Below are positions 2,780-54,426 of a stretch of 56,262 bases of DNA, piece by piece. Position 1 is the first letter of the stretch. Each line of letters starts with the position of its first letter. The position numbers and the translations under genes are program-made. The DNA lies in IMG/VR virus record IMGVR_UViG_3300009506_000039, positions 1 to 56,262 of that record; one strand, given 5' to 3'. This DNA comes from a virus (lineage: Duplodnaviria > Caudoviricetes). The notes beneath the pieces were generated by a model. That model saw only the letters and a program-made list of their open reading frames with translations, searched no databases and had not been told where the DNA came from.

Positions 2780-2786
2780 GTGAGCG

Positions 2787-3623: not shown

Positions 3624-3624
3624 C

Positions 3625-5078: not shown

Positions 5079-5080
5079 GC

Positions 5081-5308: not shown

Positions 5309-5309
5309 C

Positions 5310-6958: not shown

Positions 6959-6960
6959 TC

Positions 6961-7362: not shown

Positions 7363-7414
7363 CCTTGGGACAAGACGCAGCACTCACATAACCCTATAAA
7401 GGAGTCAAAGCAGA

Positions 7415-8139: not shown

Positions 8140-8155
8140 AAGTCGCCCCGCCGCG
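8119..8155 (+). other. Strong GC hairpin over the gpGT stop, upstream of the tape measure RBS
   Basis: CGCGGCGGGGCG...GACT GAA AGTC...GCCCCGCCGCG inverted repeat. Confidence 0.55.
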
Positions 8156-8200
8156 GTTCTGACTTGGGCATGGGCGCACTCTCTGAGAGAGGTGCGTGCA

Positions 8201-13006: not shown

Positions 13007-13010
13007 GACT

Positions 13011-14942: not shown

Positions 14943-14951
14943 GAGGCAAGC

Positions 14952-15290
14952 ATGCTTTTCGAGATCACGATCACGGCGGTGCAAATACAGATCGCGGGAT
15001 ACGTCGACTTTATGTGCACTCTGCAAAAAGAGACGACGGAAGGCTCGGGGATGTTCGAGGACTTTTCGGGCCAGCCCGATCGGGTGCGTTTGCCGATCTC
15101 AACGATCTATGAGATCGCAACGGACGACATAGCATATCCCGACAGGGCAGCAAAGCTTGTGGAGCTCCGCAGCCGCGTACTTTCTGCGGCGCGCGCTCTC
15201 CCGGTCGTGCAAGCCGTGGCTCGACAAGATCAACTTGTCAGCGCGTTGCCCGACCTGCCATTCTCAACCACTTTTGACTTTCCCGAGTAG
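14952..15290 (+). CDS. Hypothetical tail protein (112 aa)
   Basis: RBS AGGAGG; operon position. Confidence 0.7.
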   Translation: MLFEITITAVQIQIAGYVDFMCTLQKETTEGSGMFEDFSGQPDRVRLPISTIYEIATDDIAYPDRAAKLVELRSRVLSAARALPVVQAVARQDQLVSALPDLPFSTTFDFPE

Positions 15291-15299
15291 GAGGGCGGC

Positions 15300-16271: not shown

Positions 16272-16280
16272 GGGGGACAT

Positions 16281-17375
16281 ATGCCTCTAGTCGGCTGGTA
16301 TGGCATCTTGCGATGGGGCATCGGCTTGCCTGATGCCCCGACAACCGAGACGCATGCGCGCGTGACTGTCGCCGATCAGTTCGGCGCAATACTGACAGAG
16401 CTCGATCGCGCGCTCGTGCGCGTGTGCTCGTGGCGCTTGAACGACTACGGAAAAGCAGAGATCGAGATCGCGGCGACAGACGACAAGGCGACGCTCGACA
16501 ATCTCGCCTTTGGCAATCTGATCTTGCTTGAGTTCGAGAACGGGCTCCCGAACTGGGCCGGCGTGATCGACGCGCCGCGCTCATGGCCAAAAGGCTCGAT
16601 CACGGTGAACGCTTACGGGGCAGCGTACTTGCTCACGTCGAGACGAACAGGCAAGGACCAAGCATATGCAGCGCAGTCTCCGGGCGCGATCTTTCAAGAC
16701 TTGATCGCGCGCGCAAACACAACCCACCACATGGGAATAGAGATCGGCACTGTCTGGGAGGGCTCGGGCACACACTCGATCTCTTTCAACTTTGCCGATC
16801 TCTATACTGTGATCAAAGAGCAGTGCTGCGAACGTCTCGCGGACGCAGACTTTGACATAACCGGCGCGATCTCGAACGGGCGGATCGTGCTGACTGCGAA
16901 CTATTATCAAAGCAAGGGCGCGACTCGTTCGGGGGTCGCGCTCGTCGAGTCGCGCAACGTCTCGGGCGATCCGGTGCTTGAGGAGCAAGGCCCGATCTAT
17001 AACGTTTGGCGCGCAATCGGGCCGGGCTCTCTCTGGGACGACACCCGCCTCATTGGATATGCGTTCGATCAAGACAGTGTCGACAAGTACGGCTACCGCG
17101 AGATTGTCGAGTCTCACACTGAGGTAGACAGCCAGACGAGTCTCGACGAGATCGCGGCTAACCGGCTCGGCGTCACAAAAGACCCCCGCAATCGGGTTGC
17201 ACTCTCTGTCGCAGACTTGCGCCCTGGCCTGTTCTCTGCTTATGACGTGGGCGACACTGTAACCATCGTATTGCACAGCAAGGGCTTTGGCGGCTACATT
17301 GCACAAGCGCGCGTGATCACGAGAGAGTACAGTCCGGCAAGCGGTACGTGCGCGCTTGTCGTCGAGGAGCGGTGA
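16281..17375 (+). CDS. Minor tail / baseplate hub protein (364 aa)
   Basis: SVDKYGYREIV, YDVGDTVTI...ARVITREY siphovirus hub-type C-terminus. Confidence 0.7.
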   Translation: MPLVGWYGILRWGIGLPDAPTTETHARVTVADQFGAILTELDRALVRVCSWRLNDYGKAEIEIAATDDKATLDNLAFGNLILLEFENGLPNWAGVIDAPRSWPKGSITVNAYGAAYLLTSRRTGKDQAYAAQSPGAIFQDLIARANTTHHMGIEIGTVWEGSGTHSISFNFADLYTVIKEQCCERLADADFDITGAISNGRIVLTANYYQSKGATRSGVALVESRNVSGDPVLEEQGPIYNVWRAIGPGSLWDDTRLIGYAFDQDSVDKYGYREIVESHTEVDSQTSLDEIAANRLGVTKDPRNRVALSVADLRPGLFSAYDVGDTVTIVLHSKGFGGYIAQARVITREYSPASGTCALVVEER

Positions 17376-17376
17376 T

Positions 17377-17754
17377 ATGTCGTCAAATTCTGTGATCGTT
17401 CGAGACTTGCTTGTCTCTGACCCCGTGAGTGCGATCAAGGCGATCTTGCGTCGACTTGAAACACTAGAGCAGACACACCCAGGACGCCCCGGCGTGCAGC
17501 CCGGCAATCTCGTCTTTATCACAGAGCAAGGGATTGCTGACGTGAGCGCTGGCGGCGTGCGGTGCTTTGTCTCTGCGGATAACGTCTCGAACCCGCCCAC
17601 GGCTGCACAAGCCGACTCTGCGCTCGGGCTCACAGCGGAGGACGTCGGTTCGGGGTTCTCGTTCTGTATACACGACAATGGAAATGGGACCATGTGGGCG
17701 ATCTGGTCAGACGGCGCAGACTGGCACGCAGAGGCGCTTACAAAGCTGGTATAA
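17377..17754 (+). CDS. Minor tail protein (125 aa)
   Basis: RBS GAGGAG; ILRRLETLEQ coiled coil typical of the post-hub gene. Confidence 0.65.
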   Translation: MSSNSVIVRDLLVSDPVSAIKAILRRLETLEQTHPGRPGVQPGNLVFITEQGIADVSAGGVRCFVSADNVSNPPTAAQADSALGLTAEDVGSGFSFCIHDNGNGTMWAIWSDGADWHAEALTKLV

Positions 17755-17767
17755 AGGGGGCGCGCAA

Positions 17768-18469
17768 TTGGGCGAGGTATTTAACATCAGGCACGAGACC
17801 GATCTCTCTGAATACGATAGCACTGTCGTTGACGGCGGCGATCTGAGTCAAGATGCTGCCGCTGCGCTGGGTGGCACTAGCGGGGGCCTAAAATGTGTTT
17901 TGGACGACACCAATGTCATATACGGTCACAAGGACTTTGTTCAACTTGCTGGCACGGCCTATCGCTATCGCTTTTACGTTGATCCCAACGGCTTGACGAT
18001 GGCGAACTGGGACAACTTCATGTTGTGCGCTCTGCGGGACGGGGGCAGCACTCGATCAGACGTGTTTCTCCAACGCGACAATGCGTCACATTACGAGATC
18101 GCCGCGTTCGTGCTAGATGATACCTCTACCTGGCAATCGACGTCATATTACGACGTCACCGACGCGGAACATTACGTCGAGATTCTTGTACAATATGCGT
18201 CAAGTGACATAGCAAGCGATGGCTCTCTGACGCTGTGGATCGACGGCGCGCAGCAAGAGCAAGTGGGTAGCCTTGATATTTATGACGTGAGCCAGCCGCA
18301 AGACGCGGACCTGGGTGCAGTCTTTGGAATCGACGCGGGGACGAGTGGAACGTTCTATCTTGACGAGCTCGTGCTTCGCGATGACAACACAGAGATCGGG
18401 CCGTACAGTGCGGGCGGCGGCGCGATCGCGCCACAGGCCATGATCTTGCGCAGACAGCTTACATCGTAG
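17768..18469 (+). CDS. Concanavalin/LamG-like putative receptor-binding protein; paralogue of 1770-2489
   Basis: TTG start 17768 after AAGGGGG; last gene of tail operon; HYVEI...DGSLTLWIDG...GTFYLDEL. Confidence 0.65.
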   Translation: MGEVFNIRHETDLSEYDSTVVDGGDLSQDAAAALGGTSGGLKCVLDDTNVIYGHKDFVQLAGTAYRYRFYVDPNGLTMANWDNFMLCALRDGGSTRSDVFLQRDNASHYEIAAFVLDDTSTWQSTSYYDVTDAEHYVEILVQYASSDIASDGSLTLWIDGAQQEQVGSLDIYDVSQPQDADLGAVFGIDAGTSGTFYLDELVLRDDNTEIGPYSAGGGAIAPQAMILRRQLTS

Positions 18470-18488
18470 GCAACGATCTGATCGGGGA

Positions 18489-18517
18489 TTGACTTGCTCT
18501 CTGACTTGCGGTATAAT
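18489..18517 (+). promoter_or_regulatory. Sigma70/A-type promoter
   Basis: TTGACT-17 nt-TATAAT. Confidence 0.75.
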
Positions 18518-18611
18518 CAGAGAGAGGACAGTCTCACAGAACGTTCCCACCATAAACAACACGCCAAAGGGGCTCATTGGAACGCTCTTGAGCTCGACAT
18601 AGGAGACAAAC

Positions 18612-19094
18612 ATGGGCGGCGACGCTGTGGGACTGTTCGACTTTTCGCAATTGATCAGGGAGGGCGGCGTGATCGCGGGCGTCGTCGTCGCGTTCCTGTT
18701 TGCCAGTAAGCTCTTGACAGTGTTCACCCCGATCATACAAGACAAAATGACTGGGGGCAAGGCGACAAAGAGCGCAGCGCCGAGCGAGACGCCAAAGGCG
18801 CAGATCGCCTCAGACGAGACGATCCGCGCGCACTTGACCCGGACGCGATGCGTGCCCGAGGACGTCGACTTGAGGAGGCTGGCTGCGCAAGTCGACGACT
18901 TGTATCAATGGCACAAGACGACAGACCCCACGGGCGCTTTTCCGTGGAAGATATCGCCGGTCTTGCACTCGGCAATAGAGAGTCTTGCACAGAGCAACCG
19001 ACAGATTGCCAGCTTGCTCGAACGTGTGATCGCGGGGCAAGGCGACGTCGCCGAACGACTCGACAGGCTCGAACGTCGCATGCACAAGGAATAG
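18612..19094 (+). CDS. Membrane protein (N-terminal TM + coiled coil), holin-like
   Basis: RBS AGGAG; GGVIAGVVVAFLFA hydrophobic segment. Confidence 0.55.
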   Translation: MGGDAVGLFDFSQLIREGGVIAGVVVAFLFASKLLTVFTPIIQDKMTGGKATKSAAPSETPKAQIASDETIRAHLTRTRCVPEDVDLRRLAAQVDDLYQWHKTTDPTGAFPWKISPVLHSAIESLAQSNRQIASLLERVIAGQGDVAERLDRLERRMHKE

Positions 19095-19166
19095 GCAGAA
19101 ACGTCGACAGTGGGTCGACGTATGGAAAGCACATAGAGAACCCACACACACAAAGGAGTCAGAGTC

Positions 19167-19598
19167 ATGAACGTTCAAGCGGTGACCACAGCGGTAGCGA
19201 TCACGCTCGGCGCGATCGTCGCCATCATGGGTGTCGACTGGATCGTCGACTACCTGCGGAAAAAGGGCATCTTGCCGCCCCTGGCCGAGTCGTCTGTCGT
19301 CGTGCAGTTCCTCGACAAGTTCGTCGATGCGCTGCGCAAAGTGTACAATGAGACGCCGCTCTCAGAGGTAGGACGTGAGGCTGTAGAGGCTATGGCTCGT
19401 GCGTTCTGGACGAGCGTGATCGAACCCACCCCGATCAAGTCGATCTTGACGCTTGAGCGCTGGCTCTCGTTCGTCGCCAAAGCATACGACGAGATCGCGC
19501 GTGAGGAAGTCGCGCAAGCGCGCATGGCCCAGGTCGCCACAGCACGCGCCATGAAAGTCGGGGGACAGCGCGCCGACGAGCGTTCCCGCCGAGGGTAG
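19167..19598 (+). CDS. Membrane protein (N-terminal TM), holin-like
   Basis: RBS AAGGAG; AVAITLGAIVAIMGV hydrophobic segment; basic C-terminus. Confidence 0.55.
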   Translation: MNVQAVTTAVAITLGAIVAIMGVDWIVDYLRKKGILPPLAESSVVVQFLDKFVDALRKVYNETPLSEVGREAVEAMARAFWTSVIEPTPIKSILTLERWLSFVAKAYDEIAREEVAQARMAQVATARAMKVGGQRADERSRRG

Positions 19599-19624
19599 CA
19601 CACACATCCCGACACTTTCCCCAC

Positions 19625-32339: not shown

Positions 32340-32968
32340 GCTGTATACCCCGCCTCTCTGATCGCCTCGTCGAGCATAGCTTTCGCGCCCGGATCGTCTG
32401 GGTCGGGCATGTGACTCAAGAGCTCGTCTCTGATCGCTCTGATCAGCGCGTCGCGCGTCAAGCGCTTGACGTCGACGCGTCGCACGTGCAAGACCCGCTT
32501 GTCGAGCACGCCTGTGCCTTGCTGCGGAAAGTCGCGCGCCGTCGCCTCTCGTCGAGACGTCAAGACATACGGGAAGTCGGGCTCGTTCTTGCGCCTGTTC
32601 AAGATCGCAGCTTGCAAGCGTTCGAGCTCTTTCTTTGAGGCTGTGACAAAGACAGCCACCTCCCCATGCTTGAGCGCGCGCACTTGCTCAAGCTGCGCAG
32701 CCCATCGGCTCGTTCCCCGAACCCGCCCGCGCGACTGCACAAGCCGCGCAGCTTTGCGCACTCTCAGAGTGTACGTGTCCTCTGCGGCGTCTGCCGGCTC
32801 TTTGTTCGTCTTGATCGGAAACTCGTCTTTGCGTGCTTGAGCCAAAAAGTACTTGCGCCAGGTCTCGACGTCTGATCTGTCAAAAACGCGAGTCCACTCG
32901 ACGCACTCTGAGAGAGTCGTCTTGATCTGTTCCCATGCCGCAAGCTGCGGCGTCGTGTTCGTGCTCAC
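32336..32968 (-). CDS. Hypothetical protein (210 aa)
   Basis: RBS GGAGG; coupled to methylase stop. Confidence 0.7.
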   Translation of the reverse strand: MSTNTTPQLAAWEQIKTTLSECVEWTRVFDRSDVETWRKYFLAQARKDEFPIKTNKEPADAAEDTYTLRVRKAARLVQSRGRVRGTSRWAAQLEQVRALKHGEVAVFVTASKKELERLQAAILNRRKNEPDFPYVLTSRREATARDFPQQGTGVLDKRVLHVRRVDVKRLTRDALIRAIRDELLSHMPDPDDPGAKAMLDEAIREAGYTA

Positions 32969-33978
32969 TAGAAAAGCCTCCCTTGTTCGACCATTTCCGA
33001 CTCTGTGTCGTACTCAAGATCGAGATCATTGTACTCGTCGCCAACGTCGAGATCGAAAGGATCGTCGACGAGCGGGCGCACTTGATCGGTGCCCGCGTCC
33101 GTGAGTGCAGTACAGCCGATCCGCTGCGTGCCCTCAAGCGTCAAGACAGAGTCGCCCAAGAGCGCGCCCTGATCGAGCTCTGACTTGTCGACTCGCGCAA
33201 GCGCGGGGATCGACTCTCGCAAGTCGAGCCCGTCGAGCTCGTTCCCCAGACAGTACCAACCGGGCAAGTGACGACGTGCGAACAGTTCGACGTACACATG
33301 CCCGCTCTCAGGGGGATACATGCGCTCTGTTCGTTTCTGCGCCTCGTCAGGCTTGACGCTGTGCTTTTTGTCAGAGCCGGGCAGATATCGGCGCGGCGCA
33401 AAGATCACTTGTCGTCGCGCTTTCGTGCGCTCGAACGTCTTGCCATTGAACACTAGCCCGCTTTCTGTCTCGTGAGCTCGACGAGCAAGCAAGACGATCT
33501 CGACGTTACTCGCAGTATACGCGCCCGGACCAAAGACAGTCAACTTGTCGAGAAACGGCTGCAAGCGCCCCGTCTCTGTGATCTCGTCGACAAGTGATCG
33601 CACTTTGCGCAGTGTGAGCACAGGCATGCGCCAAAAGCTTGCATTGATCTTGATCCACACAAAAGCGCACGTGCAGTACTTGAACCCCCAGGCGCTCATG
33701 AGCTCGAACGCGTCGGGCAGAAAAGGGAACGTCACCCACATGAACAAGTACGCGCGCTCGTCGGCGATCTCGCCGACTGGGATCGTGCTCATGTCGCGCG
33801 TGCTCTCTGTCAAGTACCGCTCACTTGCGCCGATGCCGAAACGAGTCAAGCGCTCTGGGTTGTCTCGACGAGTCGCGCGTCGATTATTGTATCGCCACGC
33901 GGGATCGCAAAAGATCATGCTTGCTTTCACGAGAAACGCTTTGCCAAGTGACGAGCGGCGCGCGCCCGTCCGAGGCAC
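32968..33978 (-). CDS. MT-A70 family N6-adenine DNA methyltransferase
   Basis: CDPAW (DPPW-like), YLFMWVT, WGFKY...FVWIK, HSVKP, VELFAR...GW...GNE. Confidence 0.9.
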   Translation of the reverse strand: MPRTGARRSSLGKAFLVKASMIFCDPAWRYNNRRATRRDNPERLTRFGIGASERYLTESTRDMSTIPVGEIADERAYLFMWVTFPFLPDAFELMSAWGFKYCTCAFVWIKINASFWRMPVLTLRKVRSLVDEITETGRLQPFLDKLTVFGPGAYTASNVEIVLLARRAHETESGLVFNGKTFERTKARRQVIFAPRRYLPGSDKKHSVKPDEAQKRTERMYPPESGHVYVELFARRHLPGWYCLGNELDGLDLRESIPALARVDKSELDQGALLGDSVLTLEGTQRIGCTALTDAGTDQVRPLVDDPFDLDVGDEYNDLDLEYDTESEMVEQGRLF

Positions 33979-48069: not shown

Positions 48070-48822
48070 TTACAGATCGACAAAGTACTCGTCGACGAGC
48101 GCTTGCAGAGTCTCGACAAAGAGCTCGTCGTGTTTTGCGTCTTGATCGCGATTCTTGAGCATGTACGTCTCATAATCGGAGCGCATCGCGCGGGCGATCA
48201 CGTGCGCGCACTCGTGCAGTACGATTGCGACGCGCGCGCGATTGTCGCGGATCGTCGGGTACACTGCGGAGAGCTCGTGCGTCTTGACGTTCTCTGTAAG
48301 CTCATACTCGTCGCCCCAGACGTTCGACTCTGCGACGATTGTGTACTCTGCAAGCCCCTCTTGCTCGGCGCACTCAAGCTCGTGCTGCATAAAGCACAAA
48401 GTCTGCACAGTGCGGGGCGGTTCGCTATAGTACTTGCGAACAAAAAAGCCCGTTCGCCCTTGCCCCTGATCGACTTTGATCTCGACGCCCTTGACCCCGT
48501 ACTCGATCAAGATTGTGCGTGCGAGACGTTCGACTTGCTGCGCGCGCTTGTGGCGCTTGCTTACGCTGCGCTTGCGCGTCTCAAGCTCGTCGTCAAGCTC
48601 TGCGATCTCTGCTCTCTGCGCGCGCACGTCTGCAAGCATCTTGGCAAGCGCGTCTTGCGCGCTCGTGCTCTTGACTGTGTACGCTGTCTTGTTCGTTGCG
48701 TCGAGTGCGATCTTGTCGAGTGCGTCTTGCTCTCGCATCCCGCAGACTGGACAGGCAATGATTGTGCGGAATGTCTCAGAAATGTCGATCATCGTCTTGT
48801 GGCAGGTCGGGCACTTTGTCAT
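48070..48822 (-). CDS. SprT-like zinc metalloprotease domain protein with N-terminal zinc ribbon
   Basis: CPTC...CPVC; IVLHECAHV...HDELF. Confidence 0.7.
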   Translation of the reverse strand: MTKCPTCHKTMIDISETFRTIIACPVCGMREQDALDKIALDATNKTAYTVKSTSAQDALAKMLADVRAQRAEIAELDDELETRKRSVSKRHKRAQQVERLARTILIEYGVKGVEIKVDQGQGRTGFFVRKYYSEPPRTVQTLCFMQHELECAEQEGLAEYTIVAESNVWGDEYELTENVKTHELSAVYPTIRDNRARVAIVLHECAHVIARAMRSDYETYMLKNRDQDAKHDELFVETLQALVDEYFVDL

Positions 48823-48865
48823 TTTAAGCTCTCTTTCTGTGTGCGCTCTCAAACTCTCAAACACT

Positions 48866-48900
48866 GACTAGATTATATCAGATTGCAAGAGCTCTGTCAA
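48866..48900 (-). promoter_or_regulatory. Early promoter class A, copy 4
   Basis: Minus strand TTGACA-17-TATAAT; GACTAGATTATATCA. Confidence 0.85.
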
Positions 48901-49031
48901 GCAAGTGCCTCCGAATTGCGTAATTACCCCAATTTGGCGATATTCGGCGATATTTACCAAAACGGGCAATTTTACGCGCCCGGAAATTGACTTTTTATTG
49001 AGATCAACGTCGTCGACGCTCAAGATCGAGC

Positions 49032-49061
49032 TTGACAAAAAAGAGCGCTCTGTGGTACAAT
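49032..49061 (+). promoter_or_regulatory. Promoter for modification/packaging operon
   Basis: TTGACA-18-TACAAT with TG extension. Confidence 0.75.
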
Positions 49062-49119
49062 GTAGGCGTGGTGGGAGTGTTGGCGCATGACTCGACGTCA
49101 TGCAGCGTCTCTCCTTGGG

Positions 49120-49159
49120 GCGGGCGGGCGTGCTGGCGGGCAAGCCCGTCCGCTTTTTT
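49120..49159 (+). terminator. Terminator/attenuator in the operon leader
   Basis: GCGGGCGGGC...GCCCGTCCGC followed by TTTTTT. Confidence 0.65.
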
Positions 49160-49183
49160 GTCCCTACACAGAAAGGCATGCCG

Positions 49184-49771
49184 ATGACAGACAAGAGCGT
49201 CGAGCAAGACGCGCTCGAACCTCTCACATGGACGAACGCGCAGCGCAGACTTGGCGATCTCGTTCCTCAAGACGACAACCCGAAAGAGATCGACAAAGCA
49301 AGCGCTGCACGTCTCAAGCAATCGCGCCTCAAGTTCGGACAAGTACAGACTCTCGCAATCTCCCCAGATGGGCACCTGCTCGACGGGCACCAGCGGCAAG
49401 CGGTGTGGGCCGCAGCAAAAGAGCTCGGCCCCGATCTGCTCGTCGACGTGCGCGTCGCCTCCCGTGAGCTCACCCCGCACGAGCGCCACGAGCTCACGGT
49501 TCTCTTGCAGCAAGGGACGACGGGCTCATGGGTGGGCGACAAGCTCCTCGGGTGGGGTGAGGCAGACGAGCATTTGATCGCCTGGGGACTCGACAAGTCG
49601 CAATTGCTCGACTGGCGCAGACCCGACATGCCCCCGGCTGGCGACGCAGACACAGACGTCCCCGACAGTGCATGGGGCGTCGTGATCGAGTGCGTCGACG
49701 AGGACGAGCAAGTCGAGCTCATACAAAAGCTCACAGCGGAGGGGCTGCAATGCCGAGCGCTCATATCATAA
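49184..49771 (+). CDS. ParB/Srx-like N-terminal domain protein
   Basis: LGDLVP..DNPK...LKQSRLKFG...LLDGHQR; RBS GAAAGG; C-terminal WGVVIECVDEDEQ...GLQCR. Confidence 0.8.
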   Translation: MTDKSVEQDALEPLTWTNAQRRLGDLVPQDDNPKEIDKASAARLKQSRLKFGQVQTLAISPDGHLLDGHQRQAVWAAAKELGPDLLVDVRVASRELTPHERHELTVLLQQGTTGSWVGDKLLGWGEADEHLIAWGLDKSQLLDWRRPDMPPAGDADTDVPDSAWGVVIECVDEDEQVELIQKLTAEGLQCRALIS

Positions 49772-50448
49772 GGCAGATCGAGATCGCGCGCACGCCACGA
49801 GTCGTGCAAGTCGAGGCGCTTTTCGACGTGCCGCCGTCGCCTGTAAGTCGTGAGTCGTGGGACGTCGACATGCCGCTCGACGATCGAGACTGGAATGTCG
49901 GCTTGATCGTGGGCGCATCGGGGACCGGCAAGTCGACGATCGCCCGTGAGCTCTTTGGCGCTCAAAAGCTCGACGAGCTCAAGTGGCATGATGACTTGCC
50001 CGTCGTCGACGAGTTCCCCGAGGACATGGCGATCAAAGACGTCGTCAAGCTCATGACGTCTGTCGGGTTCGGCTCGCCCCCGAACTGGCTCCGCCCCTAT
50101 CATGTTCTCTCGACGGGAGAACAGTTCCGCGCCTCTGTCGCGCGCGCAATCGCAGAGAGCGCGCAGCAAGAGATCGTCGTGATCGACGAGTTCACCAGTG
50201 TGGTAGATCGACAAGTCGCACAAGTCGCAAGTCACGCAGTACAAAAGACGATCCGCCGACAAAAGCGCAAGCTGATCGCTGTGACCTGTCATTATGACGT
50301 GCTCGACTGGCTACAACCCGACTGGGTGTATGAGCCGGCGACGTCGCAATTTGCCTGGCGGGAGGTCGGGCAGCACCCCCCTTTTGTCTTGAGGTCTATA
50401 AAGTCTCACGGGACACATGGCCCATGTTTAGGCGCTTTCACTATATGA
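49750..50448 (+). CDS. ABC-type ATPase, N-terminal part of ABC-GNAT fusion
   Basis: IVGASGTGKST, LSTGEQFR, VVIDEFTSVVDR, VTCHYD; no TM partner. Confidence 0.9.
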   Translation: MPSAHIIRQIEIARTPRVVQVEALFDVPPSPVSRESWDVDMPLDDRDWNVGLIVGASGTGKSTIARELFGAQKLDELKWHDDLPVVDEFPEDMAIKDVVKLMTSVGFGSPPNWLRPYHVLSTGEQFRASVARAIAESAQQEIVVIDEFTSVVDRQVAQVASHAVQKTIRRQKRKLIAVTCHYDVLDWLQPDWVYEPATSQFAWREVGQHPPFVLRSIKSHGTHGPCLGAFTI

Positions 50449-50882
50449 GCGGCAAGCTGCACCAGGGCGCGCAGTGTTACGGGGGATACGTCGACGGGCG
50501 ACTCGTCGCCTTCTCTGCTTTCGTTCACTTTCCACACCCCAAGATCAAGAACCTCAAGATGGGGCATCGGCTCGTGGTGCTCCCTGACTGGCAGGGGTTG
50601 GGCATCGGGGGCAAGTTCGACGACTGGCTCGGCGAGTACCTTTGGCATCAGGGCATGCGATATCATAACGTCGTGGCGCATCCTGCAATGATCGCGCACT
50701 ATAGCGCGTCCCCAAGATGGGCGCACTTAGGGACGCAGCGGCACAAGCTCGTCGGTCGCACGTCAAGCGTCGCCCCCTTGAGAAAGCACCACGCCGACGT
50801 GAGTCTCAAGAGGATCGTCTCGTCTTTCGAGTACAGATCACCGAAAGGAGGGTTAGCCGGTGAGGACTTTCGTTTCTGCTAA
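50379..50882 (+). CDS. GNAT-fold (Mom-like) acyltransferase, reached by -1 frameshift from the ABC ATPase or from ATG 50424
   Basis: WPMFRRFHY; RLVVLPDWQGLGIG acyl-CoA-binding motif A; C CCT TTT heptamer at 50379-50385. Confidence 0.85.
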   Translation, partial: PFCLEVYKVSRDTWPMFRRFHYMSGKLHQGAQCYGGYVDGRLVAFSAFVHFPHPKIKNLKMGHRLVVLPDWQGLGIGGKFDDWLGEYLWHQGMRYHNVVAHPAMIAHYSASPRWAHLGTQRHKLVGRTSSVAPLRKHHADVSLKRIVSSFEYRSPKGGLAGEDFRFC

Positions 50883-51237
50883 AATCCACGGCATACGCTG
50901 CACTGACAAGAGCGTCGAGTACCACGGCTCGGTGAGCATATGTCAAGAGCTCATGGCCGCAGCCGGGATCGCGCCGTTCGAGCAAGTGCACGTGATCAAT
51001 CTGACGAACGGGCAGCGCTGGATCACATACGCGATCCGCGCAGAGCGCGGCGTCTTTTCCTTGAACGGCGGGGGCGCTCGACTGGGTGAGCCCGGCGACA
51101 AGTTCGTCTTGCTTACCTACGATCAGTGGCGCGCTCAAGACTACCCCGGCGCAACCGTCGTGCACTGCGACGACGAGAACAAGATCGCAAGCCTGGGACA
51201 CTATACGCCCACGGGCCAGTATAAGGAGGCGTCATGA
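50860..51237 (+). CDS. panD: Aspartate 1-decarboxylase (pyruvoyl-dependent)
   Basis: KIH, YHG/S self-cleavage site, NLTNGQRWITYAI, LNGGGAR, GD; RBS AAAGGAGG with GTG start. Confidence 0.92.
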   Translation: MRTFVSAKIHGIRCTDKSVEYHGSVSICQELMAAAGIAPFEQVHVINLTNGQRWITYAIRAERGVFSLNGGGARLGEPGDKFVLLTYDQWRAQDYPGATVVHCDDENKIASLGHYTPTGQYKEAS

Positions 51238-51980
51238 GCCGAGGCGTCTTTTGCAATCCCCGCGTGCGCGTGCTTGAGCTTGGCAACTATGTCGTGCCCG
51301 CCTATGCGGGTATGATACTTGCAGAGCAAGGCAACTATGTCGAAAAGTGGACGCGCCCCGGCGCGCTCGATCCTATACAAGAGCTTGATCGGGGCGACGA
51401 GCTCTGGCAGTGGATCAACAAAGACAAGAACGTCATTCCGTGCGAACTGACAAGAGACGAGCTTGAGCACGCTTTGAGTCAGAGCTTTATAACCCGAGTC
51501 GTCGACAATTTTAGGCCGTCGACGCTCGACAAGCTCAAGATCGATCCGCTAGAGATCGCACTCAGGCATGGGATCGTCTGGGTGAGTGTGCGCTCTGAGG
51601 TCGGGGAACGCTCTTTCGACGTGATCGCCCAGACTCGTGCATGGGGCGACTTTGCGGGCGCCTTGCCGTTCTACCTGGGGGACACGGCGGCGGGGCTCTG
51701 GGCCGCGTTCAAGCTTGCGATCACGAGCACGCCCGGCCATTACGTGATCGGCCATGCGTCTTGTCTTGCAAAGCTCGTGGAGGGTGAGCTTGTCGTCGAC
51801 GCTGACTCGCAGCGCTTGCGCTATGGCGTCTCGCCATGGGATCGCGATGTGTACGGATACGACAGCGAGATCGGCGCGACTGTCGAGTACAAGGGCGAGC
51901 GTCTCACAGAGCCAAACCGCGATCGGGCGTGGCGTCTTGACAATCTCTGGCATGACGACGACGGGCGGATCATAATCTGA
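51234..51980 (+). CDS. Class III (CaiB/BaiF) CoA-transferase, minimal form
   Basis: RVLELG...AGMILAEQG..VEK..RPG..DP, NKDK, VDNFRP, FDVIAQ, LGDTAAG (catalytic Asp); only 248 aa; ATGA overlap with panD. Confidence 0.85.
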   Translation: MSRGVFCNPRVRVLELGNYVVPAYAGMILAEQGNYVEKWTRPGALDPIQELDRGDELWQWINKDKNVIPCELTRDELEHALSQSFITRVVDNFRPSTLDKLKIDPLEIALRHGIVWVSVRSEVGERSFDVIAQTRAWGDFAGALPFYLGDTAAGLWAAFKLAITSTPGHYVIGHASCLAKLVEGELVVDADSQRLRYGVSPWDRDVYGYDSEIGATVEYKGERLTEPNRDRAWRLDNLWHDDDGRIII

Positions 51981-52023
51981 TCGCAGTGCAAGCACGCTGC
52001 GATTATTGACATGGGGGTAACAC

Positions 52024-52704
52024 ATGGCCGACAAAAAGACAAAGTACACAGCGGAGCAGTTTATCGCCGCGATTCCTGGCACTGGGGGCGTGATCTCTCT
52101 GATCGCCGACGTCGTCGGGTGCTCGTGGCATACTGCTAGAAAGTACATCCACGAGCACGCCACGGTGCTTGAGGCGTTCGAGGCCGAGCGTATGTCGATC
52201 ACAGACAGGGCGCGGCACAATATCCTCAAGGCAATTGAGGCGGGCGATCTCGCGATGAGCAAGTGGTGGTTGCAGTGTCAAGACCCCGAGTTCTCGACAA
52301 AGTCAGAGACGACGATCAAGGGCGACGAGAACGCGCCGCTTGCCATCGGGGGCGACTTGACGATCCGCCGATGGGTTGCGCCGCGCACAGAGCAACAGAC
52401 TCAAGACCTCGACAGAGAGCTTGCGCGTCTTGCGGCCGGTGAGCCCGAACTGGGCAGCGATCCCGATCTCGTGCTTCCTGCGCCTGACGCGCCGCTCGTG
52501 CACGCCCCAGTACAGGGCGACGATGCGGTCCCGGCGTCGTGGACGCGCCCAGATCGAGACATGTCTCTTGACGCCGTTCGTGCTCTGTCAGACGAGCAAG
52601 AGCGAGACGACGACGACGACAGATCGGAAGCCAAAAAGAATGCAGCGCTTGCCCGTGATCTCGTGCGGGAGATGCTTGCTAAGATGGAAGGGAAAAGCGC
52701 ATGA
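52024..52704 (+). CDS. terS: Terminase small subunit
   Basis: N-terminal HTH (GGVISLIADVVGCSWHTARKYI), GDLAMSKWWL; upstream of large subunit. Confidence 0.75.
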   Translation: MADKKTKYTAEQFIAAIPGTGGVISLIADVVGCSWHTARKYIHEHATVLEAFEAERMSITDRARHNILKAIEAGDLAMSKWWLQCQDPEFSTKSETTIKGDENAPLAIGGDLTIRRWVAPRTEQQTQDLDRELARLAAGEPELGSDPDLVLPAPDAPLVHAPVQGDDAVPASWTRPDRDMSLDAVRALSDEQERDDDDDRSEAKKNAALARDLVREMLAKMEGKSA

Positions 52705-52889
52705 AGATCGTTATAGAGTCTGCACAGATCAAGCTCGTCGACGATCAGGGAAACGAGAGAGTATTAGCGCTCTCAGATCGGGGTGTAACGTTCGAGACAG
52801 ACACCCTTACAATCGAGACGCACGTGAGCACGATCAGCGTGACCGTTCCCTTTGTGCCGTCAGAACCCCCGGCCCCGGTAGGGGGGTAG
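52701..52889 (+). CDS. Hypothetical protein (62 aa)
   Basis: ATGA overlap; lies between terS and terL. Confidence 0.6.
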   Translation: MKIVIESAQIKLVDDQGNERVLALSDRGVTFETDTLTIETHVSTISVTVPFVPSEPPAPVGG

Positions 52890-52890
52890 G

Positions 52891-54426
52891 GTGTCTCAAG
52901 CTGTGCCCTGGACGCCCACGGGCGATCTAGTGTACGATCCCCTGGCTCAGACGTTCGTGATCGACGGCTTGGCGCTTGTCGACGAGTCGATCGGTACGGG
53001 CGCTCTTGAGTGTGACTTTTCCTTCCCCCTCAGAACTGAGGCAGAGCTCCGACGCTTTCTTGCTCTGTCGTTCGACGTGTATATCCCAGACGTGCACGTC
53101 TGCCCGAACCATAGCACGCCCTGGCGTGCTTTTGCCGACGCGTACTTTGCACGCTCTCCTGTCTCGATCTGGAAAGCGTCGCGCGGGCTCGGCGGCAAGT
53201 CATACTTGCTTGCCTTGCTCGGCCTGACAGAGGCGATCACACTGGGGGCAGACGTGAACGTCCTGGGCGGCTCTGGCGAACAGTCGGAGCGCGTGCATGA
53301 GTACATGGCCGACTTTTGGTCGTCGCCCTACGCGCCCCGACAGTTCTTGTCGACGGACCCCGGACGGCGTGAGACTCGCATGCTCTCGGGCGCAAAGATC
53401 AAAGCACTCATGGCGTCGTCGCGCTCTGTTCGTGGGCCGCACCCGCAGCGCCTGAGACTCGACGAGATCGACGAGATCGATCTAGCGATCTTTGACGCTG
53501 CAATGGGACAACCCATGAACGCGTACAAGGGGGAGGGCGCAAAGCGGCACCTCATACGTGCACAGACTGTCGGCTCGTCGACGCACCAGTACGCCGATGG
53601 GACCATGACTAAAATCCTCTTGCGCGCAGCCGACAAAGGCTGGCCCGTACATGAATGGTGCTATCGTGAGAGTCATGCGCTCGGGTTCGGCTGGCTCTCT
53701 GCTATGCAGATTGCGCAGAAACGATCAGAGGTGACGCAAGTCATGTGGGACGTCGAGTACGACTTGCAAGAGCCCGCCCCCGGCACGCGTGCGATCTCAA
53801 CCCCTGCGGTCAAGCGCTCGTTCTTGCGCTCTCTGCGAGTCGTCGACGGCACCCCTGGGGAATTGTACATGTTCGAGCCCCCAGAGCGTGGCGCGCAGTA
53901 CGCCACGGGCGCAGACTGGGCGCGTAAAACTGACTGGACCGTGATCGTGACCTTTCGCACTGACTGCCGCCCCATGCGCTGCGTGGCGTGGGAACGCATG
54001 CAGCGCTTGCCGTGGCCCCAGATCATCCAGCGGTACAATGCTCGTCTTGCGATGTACGGACGCCGCAGCGCCCATGACGCAACAGGCCTGGGCGACGTCG
54101 TTGCCTCATACTTGACGGGCGGGGCTTTACAAGAGGATGTACTCATGACCGGGCGCACTCGTTCTGATATGCTCACCGAGTACATAGCGGGCATGGAGAA
54201 CGGCGAGATCGCCTATCCCATGATCAAGTTCGCAGAGGCAGAGCACAGACTTGCCAGCGTCGACGACGTGTACAAGTCGGGGACGACAACACACTTGCCC
54301 GACTCTATAGCGGCGGGCGCTCTCGCATACCGCGCGGGCAAGGTGCCCGTGGCGGCAAGCGGCGAGTCGAAAGTCAACCCGCAAGCTGTGCGCGCACAAA
54401 GGAGATCGAGACTATGGAACCAATGA
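52891..54426 (+). CDS. terL: Terminase large subunit
   Basis: KASRGLGGKS, SVRG, RLDEIDE, RNase H-like TGADWA...DWTV, HDATGLGD, PDSIAA. Confidence 0.9.
   Translation: MSQAVPWTPTGDLVYDPLAQTFVIDGLALVDESIGTGALECDFSFPLRTEAELRRFLALSFDVYIPDVHVCPNHSTPWRAFADAYFARSPVSIWKASRGLGGKSYLLALLGLTEAITLGADVNVLGGSGEQSERVHEYMADFWSSPYAPRQFLSTDPGRRETRMLSGAKIKALMASSRSVRGPHPQRLRLDEIDEIDLAIFDAAMGQPMNAYKGEGAKRHLIRAQTVGSSTHQYADGTMTKILLRAADKGWPVHEWCYRESHALGFGWLSAMQIAQKRSEVTQVMWDVEYDLQEPAPGTRAISTPAVKRSFLRSLRVVDGTPGELYMFEPPERGAQYATGADWARKTDWTVIVTFRTDCRPMRCVAWERMQRLPWPQIIQRYNARLAMYGRRSAHDATGLGDVVASYLTGGALQEDVLMTGRTRSDMLTEYIAGMENGEIAYPMIKFAEAEHRLASVDDVYKSGTTTHLPDSIAAGALAYRAGKVPVAASGESKVNPQAVRAQRRSRLWNQ

What the first reader, a model, noticed from the sequence alone, without database searches (positions are those of the whole stretch)
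49184..51980. Candidate new DNA-hypermodification pathway: ParB + ABC-ATPase/GNAT + PanD + class III CoA-transferase next to terminase
Seen: five overlapping or coupled ORFs under one promoter directly before terS. PanD keeps its K/H, G-S cleavage, R, TY and NG residues; the CaiB-like protein keeps its catalytic Asp (GDTAAG) but is cut to 248 aa; the GNAT keeps motif A. Established: ParB-like plus ABC-ATPase-GNAT (Mom-like) genes occur beside phage terminases and have been proposed as DNA-modifying; Mu Mom is a GNAT-fold enzyme that modifies adenine; PanD makes beta-alanine from aspartate; class III CoA-transferases load CoA onto organic acids. Inference: the phage makes beta-alanine, converts it to beta-alanyl-CoA, and the GNAT transfers this cationic aminoacyl group to DNA bases (or to a virion protein), coupled to packaging. 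I know of no described phage modification with this chemistry. No other pan/coa genes are present, which argues against a simple CoA-boosting metabolic gene.
Basis: partly seen in the sequence, partly recalled or inferred. Interest (0 to 1): 0.92.

Follow-up and report, generated by a model that had tools for sequence, protein, structure and literature searches.

The report
Phage acyl-donor cassette beside ParB/ABC-GNAT
A phage carries, just before its DNA-packaging genes, a conserved gene set that probably makes an activated beta-alanine-like group and attaches it to phage DNA, a modification that nobody has yet shown by experiment.

Summary
Window 49184-51980 encodes ParB-like, ABC-ATPase, GNAT, PanD and a 248-aa class III CoA-transferase-like protein ("CaiBs"). 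All are coupled, behind one consensus promoter and before the terminase. One correction: ABC and GNAT are the two halves of a single gene, phrog_11143. It is one ORF in 52 of 55 homologous loci; here a -1 frame change at C_CCT_TTT (50379-50385) interrupts it.

Of 41 viral contigs holding CaiBs, 37 have ABC-GNAT directly upstream and 34 have PanD. Rhodococcus phage Jace gp85-88 is the only isolate with the set.

The catalytic residues are conserved. The PanD residues are kept in 29-30 of 30 sequences. CaiBs Asp150 is invariant in 72 of 72 and aligns with CaiB Asp169.

Independent support comes from eight actinobacterial chromosomes, where CaiBs sits between a GAD-like decarboxylase and an aminobutyraldehyde-dehydrogenase-like enzyme. 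That pairs it again with an amino-acid decarboxylase.

Best reading: PanD plus CaiBs supply beta-alanyl-CoA (or a similar omega-aminoacyl-CoA) to a ParB-associated, ATP-dependent acyltransferase acting on phage DNA.

The core ABC-GNAT system was already predicted to acylate DNA (Iyer 2013). The donor module seems undescribed. No chemistry has been shown.

The parts
49032..49061 (+). Sigma-70-like promoter (TTGACA, 18 nt spacer, TACAAT, with TG). It faces a perfect divergent promoter at 48900-48872 on the - strand.
   Evidence: 11 of 12 and 12 of 12 matches. Four sites were found against 1.2 expected. Sequence read.
49135..49160 (+). Terminator-like GC hairpin followed by T6, in the leader between the promoter and the ParB ribosome-binding site. 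Possibly an antitermination-controlled late leader.
   Evidence: The function is inferred only.
49184..49771 (+). ParB/Srx-like protein, 195 aa. The N-terminal ParB domain carries a DGHQR motif. The C-terminal ~45 aa form a conserved module (WGVVIEC..E..Q..L..L..EG..CRAL) that marks this family.
   Evidence: PHROG 620 and 498. No Pfam hit for the window copy. The family profile A6 matches Noc/Spo0J/ParB at E 2e-14. Alignments.
49750..50448 (+). ABC-type ATPase ORF with Walker A GASGTGKST, signature LSTGEQFR, Walker B VVIDEFTSVVD and H-loop CHYD. Homology to the family ends at about 50385. The last ~21 codons are out-of-frame read-on.
   Evidence: In the model of the in-frame homologue, residues 1-205 form an ABC nucleotide-binding domain with Z about 15.
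50379..50385 (+). Frame-change site C_CCT_TTT inside a C6T4 run (50376-50385). A -1 shift here restores a protein colinear with the fused homologues.
   Evidence: frames compared with Jace gp86. (52 of 55 homologous ABC hits lie in one ORF with the GNAT). (a second assembly of run X1, depth 11, has no difference). (no stimulatory RNA fold, z +0.48).
50424..50882 (+). GNAT acyltransferase domain ORF, in the -1 frame relative to ABC. Homology to the family's GNAT domain already starts near 50385, upstream of this ATG.
   Evidence: phrog_11143 positions 217-350. PF13508 and PF00583 match 29 of 29 family members. The full GNAT fold in the homologue model has Z 13.3-14.7.
50860..51237 (+). Pyruvoyl-type aspartate 1-decarboxylase (PanD), 125 aa, with a GTG start.
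   Evidence: PF02261 at 108.5 bits. TIGR00223 at 79.1 bits, below its cut-off of 106. Alignment to 2c45. Catalytic columns conserved in 29-30 of 30 cassette PanDs.
51234..51980 (+). Short class III CoA-transferase-like protein ('CaiBs'), 248 aa. It has the CoA-binding large-domain core, the catalytic Asp150 and a small beta-sheet. Most of the small domain and the C-terminal return of canonical enzymes are missing.
   Evidence: Model pLDDT 91. The top Foldseek hits are all class III CoA-transferases or racemases. D150 aligns with CaiB D169. The family is compact.
52024..52704 (+). Putative small terminase subunit, named by position only.
   Evidence: No family hit. A weak tblastn match to one locus (L049).
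52891..54426 (+). Large terminase subunit.
   Evidence: phrog_9, E 1.8e-6.

Best explanation
This is a late-expressed phage nucleic-acid acylation module with its own donor supply.

Proposed pathway
1. PanD decarboxylates L-aspartate to beta-alanine.
2. The short class III CoA-transferase moves CoA from a host acyl-CoA onto that omega-amino acid. The product is beta-alanyl-CoA, or possibly 4-aminobutyryl-CoA.
3. The ABC-ATPase-GNAT enzyme, working with its ParB-like partner on DNA, uses ATP and this donor to acylate an exocyclic amine of phage DNA just before or during packaging.

The likely gains are protection from restriction and a cationic charge on the DNA.

What is shown
- The genes, their coupling, their conserved linkage, the folds and the conserved catalytic residues.

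What is inferred
- Each chemical step.
- DNA as the acceptor.
- The role of ParB.

My odds
- The cassette is one functional unit: about 0.9.
- PanD plus CaiBs make an omega-aminoacyl-CoA: about 0.55.
- The acceptor is phage DNA: about 0.55.
- The whole chain: about 0.35-0.4.

In this particular phage the ABC-GNAT gene needs a -1 frameshift to give the usual fused enzyme.
For: Linkage
- CaiBs occurs in 41 viral loci. ABC and GNAT lie directly upstream in 37 of them, and 3 of the other 4 are cut by a contig end.
- PanD lies between GNAT and CaiBs in 34 of the 41.
- The same order is found in phage Jace gp85-88.
- It is also found in prophage-like loci of Alsobacter, Hyphomicrobium, Nonomuraea, Streptomyces, Gemmataceae and others.

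Enzymes look active
- PanD catalytic columns are kept in 29-30 of 30 sequences (alignment to 2c45).
- CaiBs D150 is invariant in 72 of 72 sequences and aligns with CaiB D169.
- The confident CaiBs model has the class III fold.
- The GNAT has a complete fold and motif A.
- The ABC motifs are intact.

Substrate clue
- Eight actinobacterial chromosomes hold the operon GAD-like PLP decarboxylase, CaiBs, aminobutyraldehyde-dehydrogenase-like ALDH.
- Their CaiBs form one clade (support 100/99) nested among actinophage cassettes.

DNA clue
- The partner has a ParB fold.
- TerL follows within two genes in 5 of 9 downstream ORFs tested and in several isolates.
- ABC-GNAT was predicted to acylate a DNA base (PMC7824862, passages read).
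- ParB homologues act as required partners of phage post-replicative DNA-modifying enzymes (PMC13229309, passages read).

No PanB or PanC is found in the record.
Against: - No chemistry is shown anywhere. Neither the donor, the acceptor nor the target base is known.
- The ABC-GNAT gene of this window is frame-shifted, and no RNA structure supports programmed slippage.
- CaiBs lacks about 40% of a canonical class III enzyme, including most of the small domain. Its Pfam match covers positions 4-119 only, the hhalign match to CaiB is weak (E 0.049, probability 1.1%), and activity is unproven.
- Of 61 phage records with ABC-GNAT, 59 lack PanD and CaiBs, so the donor module is not needed by the core system.
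- Five viral cassettes with intact upstream sequence have CaiBs without PanD.
- PanD scores below NCBI's equivalog cut-off. It has LNGGGARLG where M. tuberculosis PanD 2c45 reads NGAAAH, and a 2-residue deletion, so its substrate could differ.
- Achromobacter phage 2-1 carries a lone panD beside its DNA polymerase. Phage panD can therefore exist without this system.
Confidence: 0.38

Rival explanations
1. The same donor module is used, but the acceptor is not DNA. The ABC-GNAT would acylate a protein (terminase, portal, capsid or a host factor) or an RNA such as tRNA. It would work like the ATPase-coupled RNA cytidine acetyltransferases TmcA and NAT10.
For: - The GNAT fold resembles small protein and small-molecule acetyltransferases: RimI, Naa50 and IAA acetyltransferase, Z 13.3-14.7.
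- The motif PDYQGLGIG resembles NAT10's PDYQGMGYG, but the match is not significant (E 0.4).
- Several ABC-GNAT phages lack a ParB neighbour: phiE255, Porphyromonas 007a, TR-TP2 and Enterococcus 9184.
Against: - A ParB-fold gene is translationally coupled upstream in 9 of 15 isolate contexts looked at and in most metagenomic loci.
- The position beside terminase recurs.
- The prior prediction in print is for DNA.
Confidence: 0.22
2. In this particular phage the system is dead or decaying. The frame change splits ABC from GNAT and removes the first strand and helix of the GNAT domain from any ORF with a start codon, so no modification is made here.
For: - The frame change is real in two assemblies of the same run.
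- 52 of 55 homologous ABC hits are in-frame fusions with the GNAT.
- There is no downstream RNA structure.
- The site is a C6T4 run, a typical indel hotspot.
Against: - Both halves are otherwise intact, at 48-62% identity to in-frame homologues.
- PanD and CaiBs are intact.
- The site is an in-phase X_XXY_YYZ heptamer.
- Firmicutes phages carry the GNAT half in the -1 frame in 6 of 6 cases examined, each with a homopolymer or slippery run at the junction. A frameshifted arrangement can therefore persist.
Confidence: 0.3
3. PanD and CaiBs form an auxiliary metabolic module that raises beta-alanine, pantothenate and CoA levels or re-routes host acyl-CoA pools during infection. It would not supply a donor for the GNAT.
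For: - Lone phage panD genes exist (Achromobacter phage 2-1).
- PanD is the textbook entry to pantothenate and CoA.
Against: - There is no PanB or PanC in the record.
- A CoA-transferase has no place in CoA synthesis.
- CaiBs is found in 2 of 50,697 phage records, both copies of Jace and both inside the cassette.
- CaiBs lies next to ABC-GNAT in 37 of 41 viral loci. An unrelated metabolic gene would not keep that position.
Confidence: 0.07
4. CaiBs is not a transferase for beta-alanine. It may activate another acid (for example GABA, or an acid made after decarboxylation and oxidation), or act as a racemase or CoA-ester-binding protein. The PanD-like enzyme may decarboxylate something other than free aspartate.
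For: - The chromosomal partner is GAD-like, pointing to glutamate and GABA.
- The flanking ALDH also hits LuxC acyl-CoA reductase weakly.
- Cassette PanDs share GGG where 2c45 has AAA, plus a loop deletion.
- The class III family includes racemases.
Against: - All PanD substrate-binding and catalytic residues seen in 2c45 are kept.
- The invariant Asp fits the transferase mechanism.
Confidence: 0.2

Closest known systems
ParB plus ABC-ATPase-GNAT system predicted to acylate a DNA base (Iyer, Zhang, Burroughs and Aravind 2013, as cited in PMC7824862 section 3.4.7; phrog_11143)
   Same: The same core is present. The ABC nucleotide-binding domain is joined to a GNAT and preceded by a ParB-fold gene in phages. 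Tenacibaculum phage pT24, named in that paper, is among my hits.
   Different: This clade adds PanD and a short CoA-transferase, which none of the passages I could read mentions. The 2013 paper and its supplements were not available to me, so it may already note them. The window's copy is frame-shifted. The core system itself has never been characterised at the bench, as far as my searches show.
Phage Mu Mom (GNAT-fold adenine N6 modification)
   Same: Both would be a late, phage-encoded GNAT-fold enzyme thought to modify DNA bases against restriction. In the Mu-like phage phiE255 the ABC-GNAT gene lies after the tail-fibre genes, where mom lies in Mu by my recollection.
   Different: There is no ATPase or ParB in Mom. 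No sequence link to Mom was tested or seen here. The Mom donor and chemistry differ (recalled).
TmcA / NAT10 RNA cytidine N4-acetyltransferases
   Same: The logic is the same: an NTPase domain coupled to a GNAT that acylates a base amine with an acyl-CoA. The motif A is similar (PDYQGxGxG).
   Different: The ATPase is helicase-like in TmcA/NAT10 and ABC-type here. The targets of TmcA/NAT10 are RNA. The PDB match is not significant (E 0.4).
Class III (CaiB/Frc/BaiF) CoA-transferases
   Same: The fold of the large domain, the CoA-binding N-terminal motifs and the catalytic Asp are shared.
   Different: CaiBs is only about 230-250 aa against about 360-430. Most of the small domain and the C-terminal return are missing. 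It forms a small separate family: 36 representative clusters at E<=1e-30 among 1.84 billion proteins, then a sharp drop to canonical enzymes that match only the first ~100 positions.
Amino-acid and polyamine hypermodifications of phage thymidine (alpha-putrescinyl-T, alpha-glutamyl-T, aminoethyl-dU; pathways with ParB-dependent 5mYOX, kinases and AADTs)
   Same: Both are post-replicative, gene-clustered and often beside ParB and terminase. Both would add a charged amino group to DNA (PMC13229309, passages).
   Different: The chemistry is entirely different. Here an acyl-CoA and a GNAT are used, not 5-hmdU pyrophosphate intermediates. No 5mYOX, kinase or AADT was seen in the cassette.
PanD with its GNAT-fold activator PanZ/PanM
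   Same: A GNAT gene lies next to panD.
   Different: ABC-GNAT occurs without PanD in 59 of 61 phage records, so activating PanD cannot be its main job.

Membership tests
Aspartate 1-decarboxylase, PanD (PF02261 / TIGR00223) | Match to the family model above its curated cut-off | tested here: met
   PF02261 scores 108.5 bits against a cut-off of 25. The stricter NCBI equivalog TIGR00223 scores 79.1 bits, below its cut-off of 106. It is therefore a divergent subfamily.
Aspartate 1-decarboxylase, PanD (PF02261 / TIGR00223) | Gly-Ser self-cleavage site that gives the pyruvoyl group, plus the catalytic and substrate residues (E. coli/M. tuberculosis numbering K9, H11, R54, T57, Y58, N72; their roles are recalled) | tested here: met
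   G23-S24, K8, H10, R53, T56, Y57 and N69 align with 2c45. They are kept in 29-30 of 30 cassette PanDs.
Aspartate 1-decarboxylase, PanD (PF02261 / TIGR00223) | Decarboxylates L-aspartate to beta-alanine | not testable with these tools
   This needs an enzyme assay.
Class III CoA-transferase (PF02515) | Match to the family model and fold | tested here: met
   PF02515 scores 29.2 bits against a cut-off of 23.3, on positions 4-119 of 366 only. Foldseek top hits 5yit, 10ui, 1t4c, 1xa3 and 9br6 have E 3e-10 to 1e-7 and TMq about 0.6.
Class III CoA-transferase (PF02515) | Catalytic aspartate that forms the acyl-anhydride and CoA-thioester intermediates (CaiB and Frc Asp169; the role is recalled) | tested here: met
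   D150 aligns with CaiB D169 in hhalign, though the alignment is weak (E 0.049). D150 is invariant in 72 of 72 sequences.
Class III CoA-transferase (PF02515) | Full two-domain chain of about 360-430 aa that forms the interlocked dimer | tested here: not met
   The protein is 248 aa and family members are 209-271 aa. After residue ~205 the model has only a small 3-stranded sheet and one helix. It is a truncated relative, not a canonical member.
ABC-ATPase-GNAT (phrog_11143; predicted DNA acylation system) | ABC nucleotide-binding domain with Walker A, signature, Walker B and H-loop | tested here: met
   Model Z is about 15 to ABC nucleotide-binding domains.
ABC-ATPase-GNAT (phrog_11143; predicted DNA acylation system) | GNAT domain with the acyl-CoA-binding motif A | tested here: met
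   QGLGIGG is present. PF00583 and PF13508 match 29 of 29 members. The GNAT fold has Z 13.3-14.7.
ABC-ATPase-GNAT (phrog_11143; predicted DNA acylation system) | Both domains in one polypeptide | tested here: not met
   The window has a -1 frame change at 50379-50385. 52 of 55 homologous ABC hits lie in one ORF with the GNAT. Firmicutes phages also have the two halves in different frames.
ABC-ATPase-GNAT (phrog_11143; predicted DNA acylation system) | Acylates a DNA base | not testable with these tools
   This is a prediction in print only.
ParB/Srx N-terminal domain (PF02195) | Match to the family model | tested here: inconclusive
   The window protein has no Pfam hit at E<=0.01, but it matches PHROG 620 (1.2e-6) and 498 (1.8e-9). 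The profile of its family matches Noc, Spo0J and ParB at E 2e-14. PF02195 hits 7 of 10 upstream partners tested, plus EastWest gp74.
Mom family (phage Mu) | Sequence membership in the Mom clade of GNAT-fold proteins | not tested
   No Mom sequence or model was compared. The Pfam scans returned only generic GNAT families.

The most novel reading that the evidence does not exclude
ParB-associated ABC-GNAT enzymes would be a widespread family of ATP-driven phage DNA acyltransferases with swappable tailoring or donor modules. The modules seen are PanD plus short CoA-transferase here, a formyltransferase in Gordonia, Burkholderia and Porphyromonas phages, and an ASCH domain in Streptococcus phages. 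The PanD/CaiBs clade would install an N-(beta-alanyl) base. That would be the first aminoacyl-CoA-dependent, cationic amide hypermodification of DNA, made by a new minimal class of CoA-transferase.
Probability: 0.3. Interest if true: 0.9.

Novelty: new variant of a known kind. Interest (0 to 1): 0.72.

Why it matters
- If true, it would add a new chemical class to the known phage DNA hypermodifications: an amide-linked omega-amino acid taken from an acyl-CoA.
- It would give the first function to the long-predicted but untested ParB/ABC-GNAT system, which is present in 61 of 50,697 phage records, including Streptococcus pyogenes prophages and Gordonia phages.
- It would define a minimal, roughly 230-aa form of class III CoA-transferase.
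- It is directly testable, because the cultured Rhodococcus phage Jace carries the intact cassette.
- Such modifications matter for evasion of restriction and CRISPR, for sequencing artefacts, and as enzyme tools for labelling DNA.

Tried and rejected
- **Single-protein locus search.** The search for related loci in viral contigs with the single protein found nothing. The alignment-based search worked.
- **Complex prediction.** Complex prediction with ParB (A6) and ABC-GNAT (A3) gave no verdict: score 0.00 against a mark of 0.32. I draw nothing from it.
- **Programmed frameshift stimulator.** The 105 nt after the slippery run fold no better than shuffles (z +0.48).
- **Repeats.** A search for parS- or pac-like repeats in 48800-52900 gave only short matches of the kind expected by chance.
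- **Fusion search.** No protein of 435-2000 aa matched CaiBs at E<=1e-20 (weak evidence). The single 404-aa protein P0119 joins a truncated ABC domain directly to CaiBs. It is one contig and looks like a deletion or a chimera.
- **Specificity residues.** Columns conserved in 28 CaiBs-linked GNATs but different in 7 unlinked ones are C241, H261, N305, Y316 and R321 in L003 numbering. The comparison is confounded by relatedness, so this is a lead only.
- **Significant PDB relative for the GNAT.** None was found at E<0.1.
- **tRNA genes.** None in the window.
- **Base composition.** No break at the cassette.
- **ESM Atlas.** It only repeated 'CoA-transferase family III'.
- **Literature.** Ten searches found no paper that links aspartate decarboxylase, a CoA-transferase or beta-alanyl-CoA with phage DNA modification. 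This holds only for the held open-access library.
- **Papers read as found passages only.** PMC7824862, PMC13229309 and PMC12704722 bore on the question. PMC10853773, PMC12839542 and PMC5512222 did not.
- **Papers not seen.** Iyer et al. 2013 (NAR gkt573, PMC3763556) and Krishnan et al. 2020 (PMC7544218) are not held. I saw nothing of them. They or their supplements may already describe the PanD and CoA-transferase neighbours. Supplementary files were not consulted.

Full report
**What is there.** The window is an IMG/VR virus record of 56,262 bases, linear, with a CheckV completeness of 72%. One run of a marine sediment metagenome holds it.
- Structural genes lie at 1-19,600 on the + strand.
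- Replication-type genes lie on the - strand: two helicases, a DNA methyltransferase at 32968-33978 and an FtsK-like ATPase.
- A + strand block starts at about 49,000.

Between the two blocks are two divergent consensus promoters. One, on the - strand, runs from 48900 to 48872 and matches 12 of 12 positions. The other, on the + strand, is at 49032-49061 and matches 11 of 12. The + promoter is followed by a terminator-like hairpin at 49135-49154 with a T6 run, which sits directly before the ParB ribosome-binding site.

The + block then reads as follows:
- ParB-like, 49184-49771.
- ABC ATPase, 49750-50448.
- GNAT, 50424-50882.
- PanD, 50860-51237.
- A 248-aa CoA-transferase III-like protein that I call CaiBs, 51234-51980.
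- An unassigned 226-aa ORF in the place of terS.
- A 62-aa ORF.
- TerL, 52891-54426 (phrog_9, E 1.8e-6).
- A long ORF that runs off the end.

The overlaps between the five cassette genes are 22, 25, 23 and 4 nt. GC content shows no break at the cassette.

**ABC and GNAT are one gene with a frame change.** One PHROG family, phrog_11143 (357 positions), covers both ORFs: positions 3-205 on ABC and 217-350 on GNAT. In Jace gp86 and in 52 of 55 ABC hits in the related loci, the two domains lie in one ORF. Of the three exceptions, one is an alignment end effect, one is a divergent copy and one is a low-coverage MAG.

In the window, homology passes from one frame to the -1 frame inside a C6T4 run. 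Reading HPPF and then slipping -1 at C_CCT_TTT (50379-50385) continues as CLEVYKVSRDTWPMFRRFHY. This is colinear with Jace's HPPL-RLTVHESSRADWKMFARHHY. A second assembly of the same run (Logan contig, depth 11) is identical over 49000-51953. The frame change is therefore not an assembler slip, although the reads are not independent. The RNA downstream folds no better than shuffles. I cannot tell a recent indel from programmed slippage.

**The -1 arrangement recurs elsewhere.** In the six Firmicutes phages I examined, the GNAT half is in the -1 frame in 6 of 6 cases: Streptococcus 315.4 and MismyG, Lactococcus P335, Oenococcus Vinitor-27, Thomasclavelia TR-TP2 and Enterococcus 9184. In Streptococcus 315.4 the homology in the two frames abuts within a few bases. 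At most junctions there is a homopolymer or slippery run:
- GTTTTTC in the Streptococcus and Lactococcus phages.
- An in-phase A_AAG_GGC in Oenococcus.
- A G5 run in Thomasclavelia.

The GNAT-frame peptide upstream of any start codon is conserved. This makes a decoded frameshift thinkable for the window too.

**The linkage test.** CaiBs is a compact family.
- 216 proteins match at E<=1e-3 in the word-indexed search, nearly all of 223-271 aa.
- In the exhaustive profile search of 1.84 billion representatives, 36 match at E<=1e-30. There is then a sharp fall to canonical class III enzymes that match only the first ~100 positions.

A profile-derived pattern scan gave 41 viral loci and 24 genome loci. 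I ran tblastn with the window's proteins against them.

Viral loci (41):
- ABC and GNAT lie directly upstream of CaiBs in 37.
- Three of the other four are cut by a contig end within 300 nt. L042 has only a divergent ABC-like ORF.
- PanD lies between GNAT and CaiBs in 34.
- Five loci with intact upstream sequence lack PanD (L020, L026, L028, L032, L036). Two are cut.
- Many loci are near-copies of each other, so the independent lineages number perhaps 20-25 (48 distinct CaiBs rows in the tree).

Genome loci (24):
- 8 carry the phage-type cassette: Alsobacter, Hyphomicrobium, Nonomuraea, Streptomyces, Gemmataceae, Planctomycetales and Thermoanaerobaculia.
- 3 show PanD-CaiBs at a contig start.
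- 8 show a different, chromosomal context, described below.
- 1 has CaiBs alone.
- 4 are C-terminal fragments.

Among 50,697 phage records, CaiBs is found only in Jace (2 records of one phage). Jace has ParB gp85, ABC-GNAT gp86, 'aspartate decarboxylase' gp87 and a hypothetical protein gp88. ABC-GNAT itself is found in 61 records. The link is strong.

**The enzymes.**

PanD:
- PF02261 scores 108.5 bits.
- Aligned with M. tuberculosis PanD 2c45, it keeps K8, H10, Y21, the G23-S24 cleavage site, R53, T56, Y57 and N69-G70.
- These columns are kept in 29-30 of 30 distinct cassette PanDs.
- It is a divergent subfamily: TIGR00223 scores 79 bits against a cut-off of 106. It also has a two-residue loop deletion and LNGGGARLG where 2c45 reads NGAAAH.

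CaiBs:
- The AlphaFold model is confident (pLDDT 91.0, pTM 0.87).
- The listed Foldseek hits are all class III CoA-transferases or racemases: Rv3272 at E 2.8e-10 and TMq 0.62, then Frc, CaiB, YfdW, BbsEF, SUGCT and MCR.
- The family profile finds Frc and an MCR-type racemase in the PDB at E 2e-4.
- A profile alignment with E. coli CaiB puts D150 on D169. By my recollection D169 is the catalytic aspartate. The alignment statistics are weak (E 0.049).
- D150 is invariant in 72 of 72 sequences.
- The chain stops after a small three-stranded sheet. Most of the small domain and the C-terminal return are absent, so it fails the architecture test for a canonical member.

ABC-GNAT (model of the 62%/49%-identical in-frame homologue from L003, pLDDT 86.8):
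- Residues 1-205 form an ABC nucleotide-binding domain with Z about 15.
- Residues 210-371 form a full GNAT with Z 13.3-14.7 to 1y9k, RimI and Naa50.
- All ABC motifs and GNAT motif A are present.
- 29 of 29 family GNAT regions match PF00583 and PF13508.

ParB:
- The window copy has no Pfam hit.
- The family profile matches Noc, Spo0J and ParB at E 2e-14.
- PF02195 hits 7 of 10 upstream partners tested, plus EastWest gp74.
- All partners share a conserved C-terminal ~45-aa module.

**An independent clue to the substrate.** In eight actinobacterial chromosomes CaiBs has no ABC, GNAT or PanD beside it. These are Actinopolyspora (two), Salininema, Lentzea, Promicromonospora, Streptomyces (two) and 'Actinobacteria bacterium OK074'. 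Instead it sits between two conserved genes:
- A PLP-dependent decarboxylase. PF00282 matched 4 of 4 tested. TIGR01788 glutamate decarboxylase scores 352-363 bits, just under the cut-off of 380, in 3 of 3 tested.
- An aldehyde dehydrogenase. PF00171 matched 2 of 2 tested. It is closest to aminobutyraldehyde dehydrogenase NF010000, at 570-622 bits around the cut-off of 615. It also hits LuxC acyl-CoA reductase weakly.

These CaiBs are 46-52% identical to the window's, the same as the phage copies. They form one clade with support 100/99, lying among actinophage cassettes on a midpoint-rooted tree. So a non-homologous amino-acid alpha-decarboxylase has replaced PanD next to the same enzyme.

Two readings of that operon are possible. 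The flanks may both make an omega-amino acid. Alternatively, the operon may be a linear route: decarboxylase, then CoA ester, then aldehyde. Either way, CaiBs acting on the omega-amino acid left by decarboxylation is the simplest common reading. This is inference, not proof.

**Why DNA, and what else rides with ABC-GNAT.** The passages I read in Iyer et al. [quoted passage not shown] They cite their 2013 paper. PMC13229309 shows ParB homologues as required partners of phage post-replicative thymidine dioxygenases in hypermodification clusters.

I looked at 15 isolate contexts (with family checks):
- A ParB-fold gene is directly upstream in 9. Eight were confirmed by Pfam and one rests on annotation.
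- A terminase gene lies within about four genes downstream in 8.
- In the metagenomic loci, 5 of 9 downstream ORFs tested are TerL.

Other accessory genes occupy the slot just after ABC-GNAT:
- A Formyl_trans_N protein in Burkholderia phiE255 gp30 (2.9e-21), in Porphyromonas 007a (1e-10) and in Gordonia BiggityBass gp3 (7e-10). The last is annotated as a tRNA methyltransferase.
- An ASCH-domain protein in Streptococcus 315.4 and MismyG (about 1e-5).

A formyltransferase needs an amine acceptor. By my recollection, ASCH proteins include an N4-acylcytosine amidohydrolase. Both fit a base-amide product that may carry a free amine, but these are leads only.

**Rivals.**
- A CoA-boosting metabolic role is unlikely. 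There is no PanB or PanC in the record, a CoA-transferase has no place in CoA synthesis, and CaiBs keeps its position beside ABC-GNAT. A lone phage panD does exist, however, in Achromobacter phage 2-1.
- A protein or RNA acceptor cannot be excluded. The GNAT's nearest folds are protein and small-molecule acetyltransferases, and some ABC-GNAT phages lack ParB.
- The window's own copy may be inactive because of the frame change.

**Novelty and verdict.** The core system is a known prediction. The PanD plus short CoA-transferase donor module, the chromosomal GAD-CaiBs-ALDH operon and the minimal CoA-transferase family appear in none of the papers I could search (ten searches, listed under Tried and rejected). 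I could not read the 2013 paper, the 2020 ABC-ATPase survey or any supplements.

I rate it a new variant of a known (predicted) kind. It is of high interest because it names a concrete, testable new DNA chemistry and a cultured phage, Jace, in which to test it. My confidence in the full mechanism is about 0.38.

Noticed in passing
L072:4080-4100, L076:3570-3606, L080:2067-2139, L079:2085-2103, L078:3402-3459, L081:2121-2166; window 50376-50385: In Firmicutes phages the GNAT half of ABC-GNAT lies in the -1 frame relative to the ABC half: 6 of 6 examined, and 19 of the 60 listed rows are in 2-3 pieces. The homology abuts across a homopolymer or slippery run (GTTTTTC, or an in-phase A_AAG_GGC). 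The GNAT-frame peptide before any start codon is conserved. This looks like a conserved -1 frameshift, or a translational-coupling arrangement, that the annotations miss.
   Followed up: partly
L071:4574-5188 (phiE255 gp30), L077:4086-4559 (Porphyromonas 007a), L070:1823-2473 (BiggityBass gp3): A short Formyl_trans_N (PF00551) protein sits directly after ABC-GNAT in three unrelated phages. The Gordonia one is annotated as a tRNA methyltransferase. It occupies the slot that PanD plus CaiBs occupy here and may be an alternative tailoring module.
   Followed up: partly
L072:4631-5008 and L076:4117-4485: An ASCH-domain protein follows ABC/GNAT in Streptococcus phages 315.4 and MismyG. It could be a reader or eraser of an acylated base.
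   Followed up: no
L050, L051, L053, L055-L059 (CaiBs at about 7001-7720; at 2654-3364 in L053): Eight actinobacterial chromosomes hold a three-gene operon: GAD-like PLP decarboxylase, short CoA-transferase, aminobutyraldehyde-dehydrogenase-like ALDH. Its pathway is unknown. The neighbours vary (IDO-like, cytochrome b5, P450, MFS, PucR, LuxR and WYL regulators).
   Followed up: partly
window 49032-49160: A near-consensus promoter is followed 75 nt later by a terminator-like hairpin with T6, right before the late operon. The layout recalls lambdoid late promoter-terminator leaders read through by an antiterminator (recalled analogy).
   Followed up: no
L016:878-1978 and L016:3035-4138 (also L017-L019, L021, L023, L029): In one group of viral contigs two ABC-GNAT paralogues, 72% identical, flank PanD-CaiBs.
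   Followed up: partly
protein P0119 (404 aa): The N-terminal part of the ABC domain, up to the H-loop, is joined directly to CaiBs. GNAT, PanD and the first residues of CaiBs are missing. It is seen on one contig, so it may be a deletion derivative or a chimera.
   Followed up: no
L075:3680-3860 (Tenacibaculum phage pT24): The ABC-GNAT homology runs in one frame across an in-frame TGA inside the GNAT region. The record annotates two ORFs.
   Followed up: no
window 32968-33978 (-): A DNA methyltransferase (phrog_359, E 1.3e-43). The phage therefore carries a second, ordinary DNA-modification gene.
   Followed up: no
L045-L047, L061, L062, L064-L067 (one Gemmataceae MAG and a Gemmata MAG): One planctomycete MAG holds several copies or fragments of the cassette on different contigs. 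Some have frame breaks in PanD and CaiBs (L062, L061, L066).
   Followed up: no
L082:3489-3884 (Achromobacter phage 2-1): A lone panD lies directly upstream of the DNA polymerase gene, with no CaiBs or ABC-GNAT in the stretch viewed.
   Followed up: no
L049:6016-6987: In the Hyphomicrobium prophage-like locus an HNH endonuclease (phrog_5046) lies between ABC-GNAT and CaiBs, where PanD usually is.
   Followed up: no
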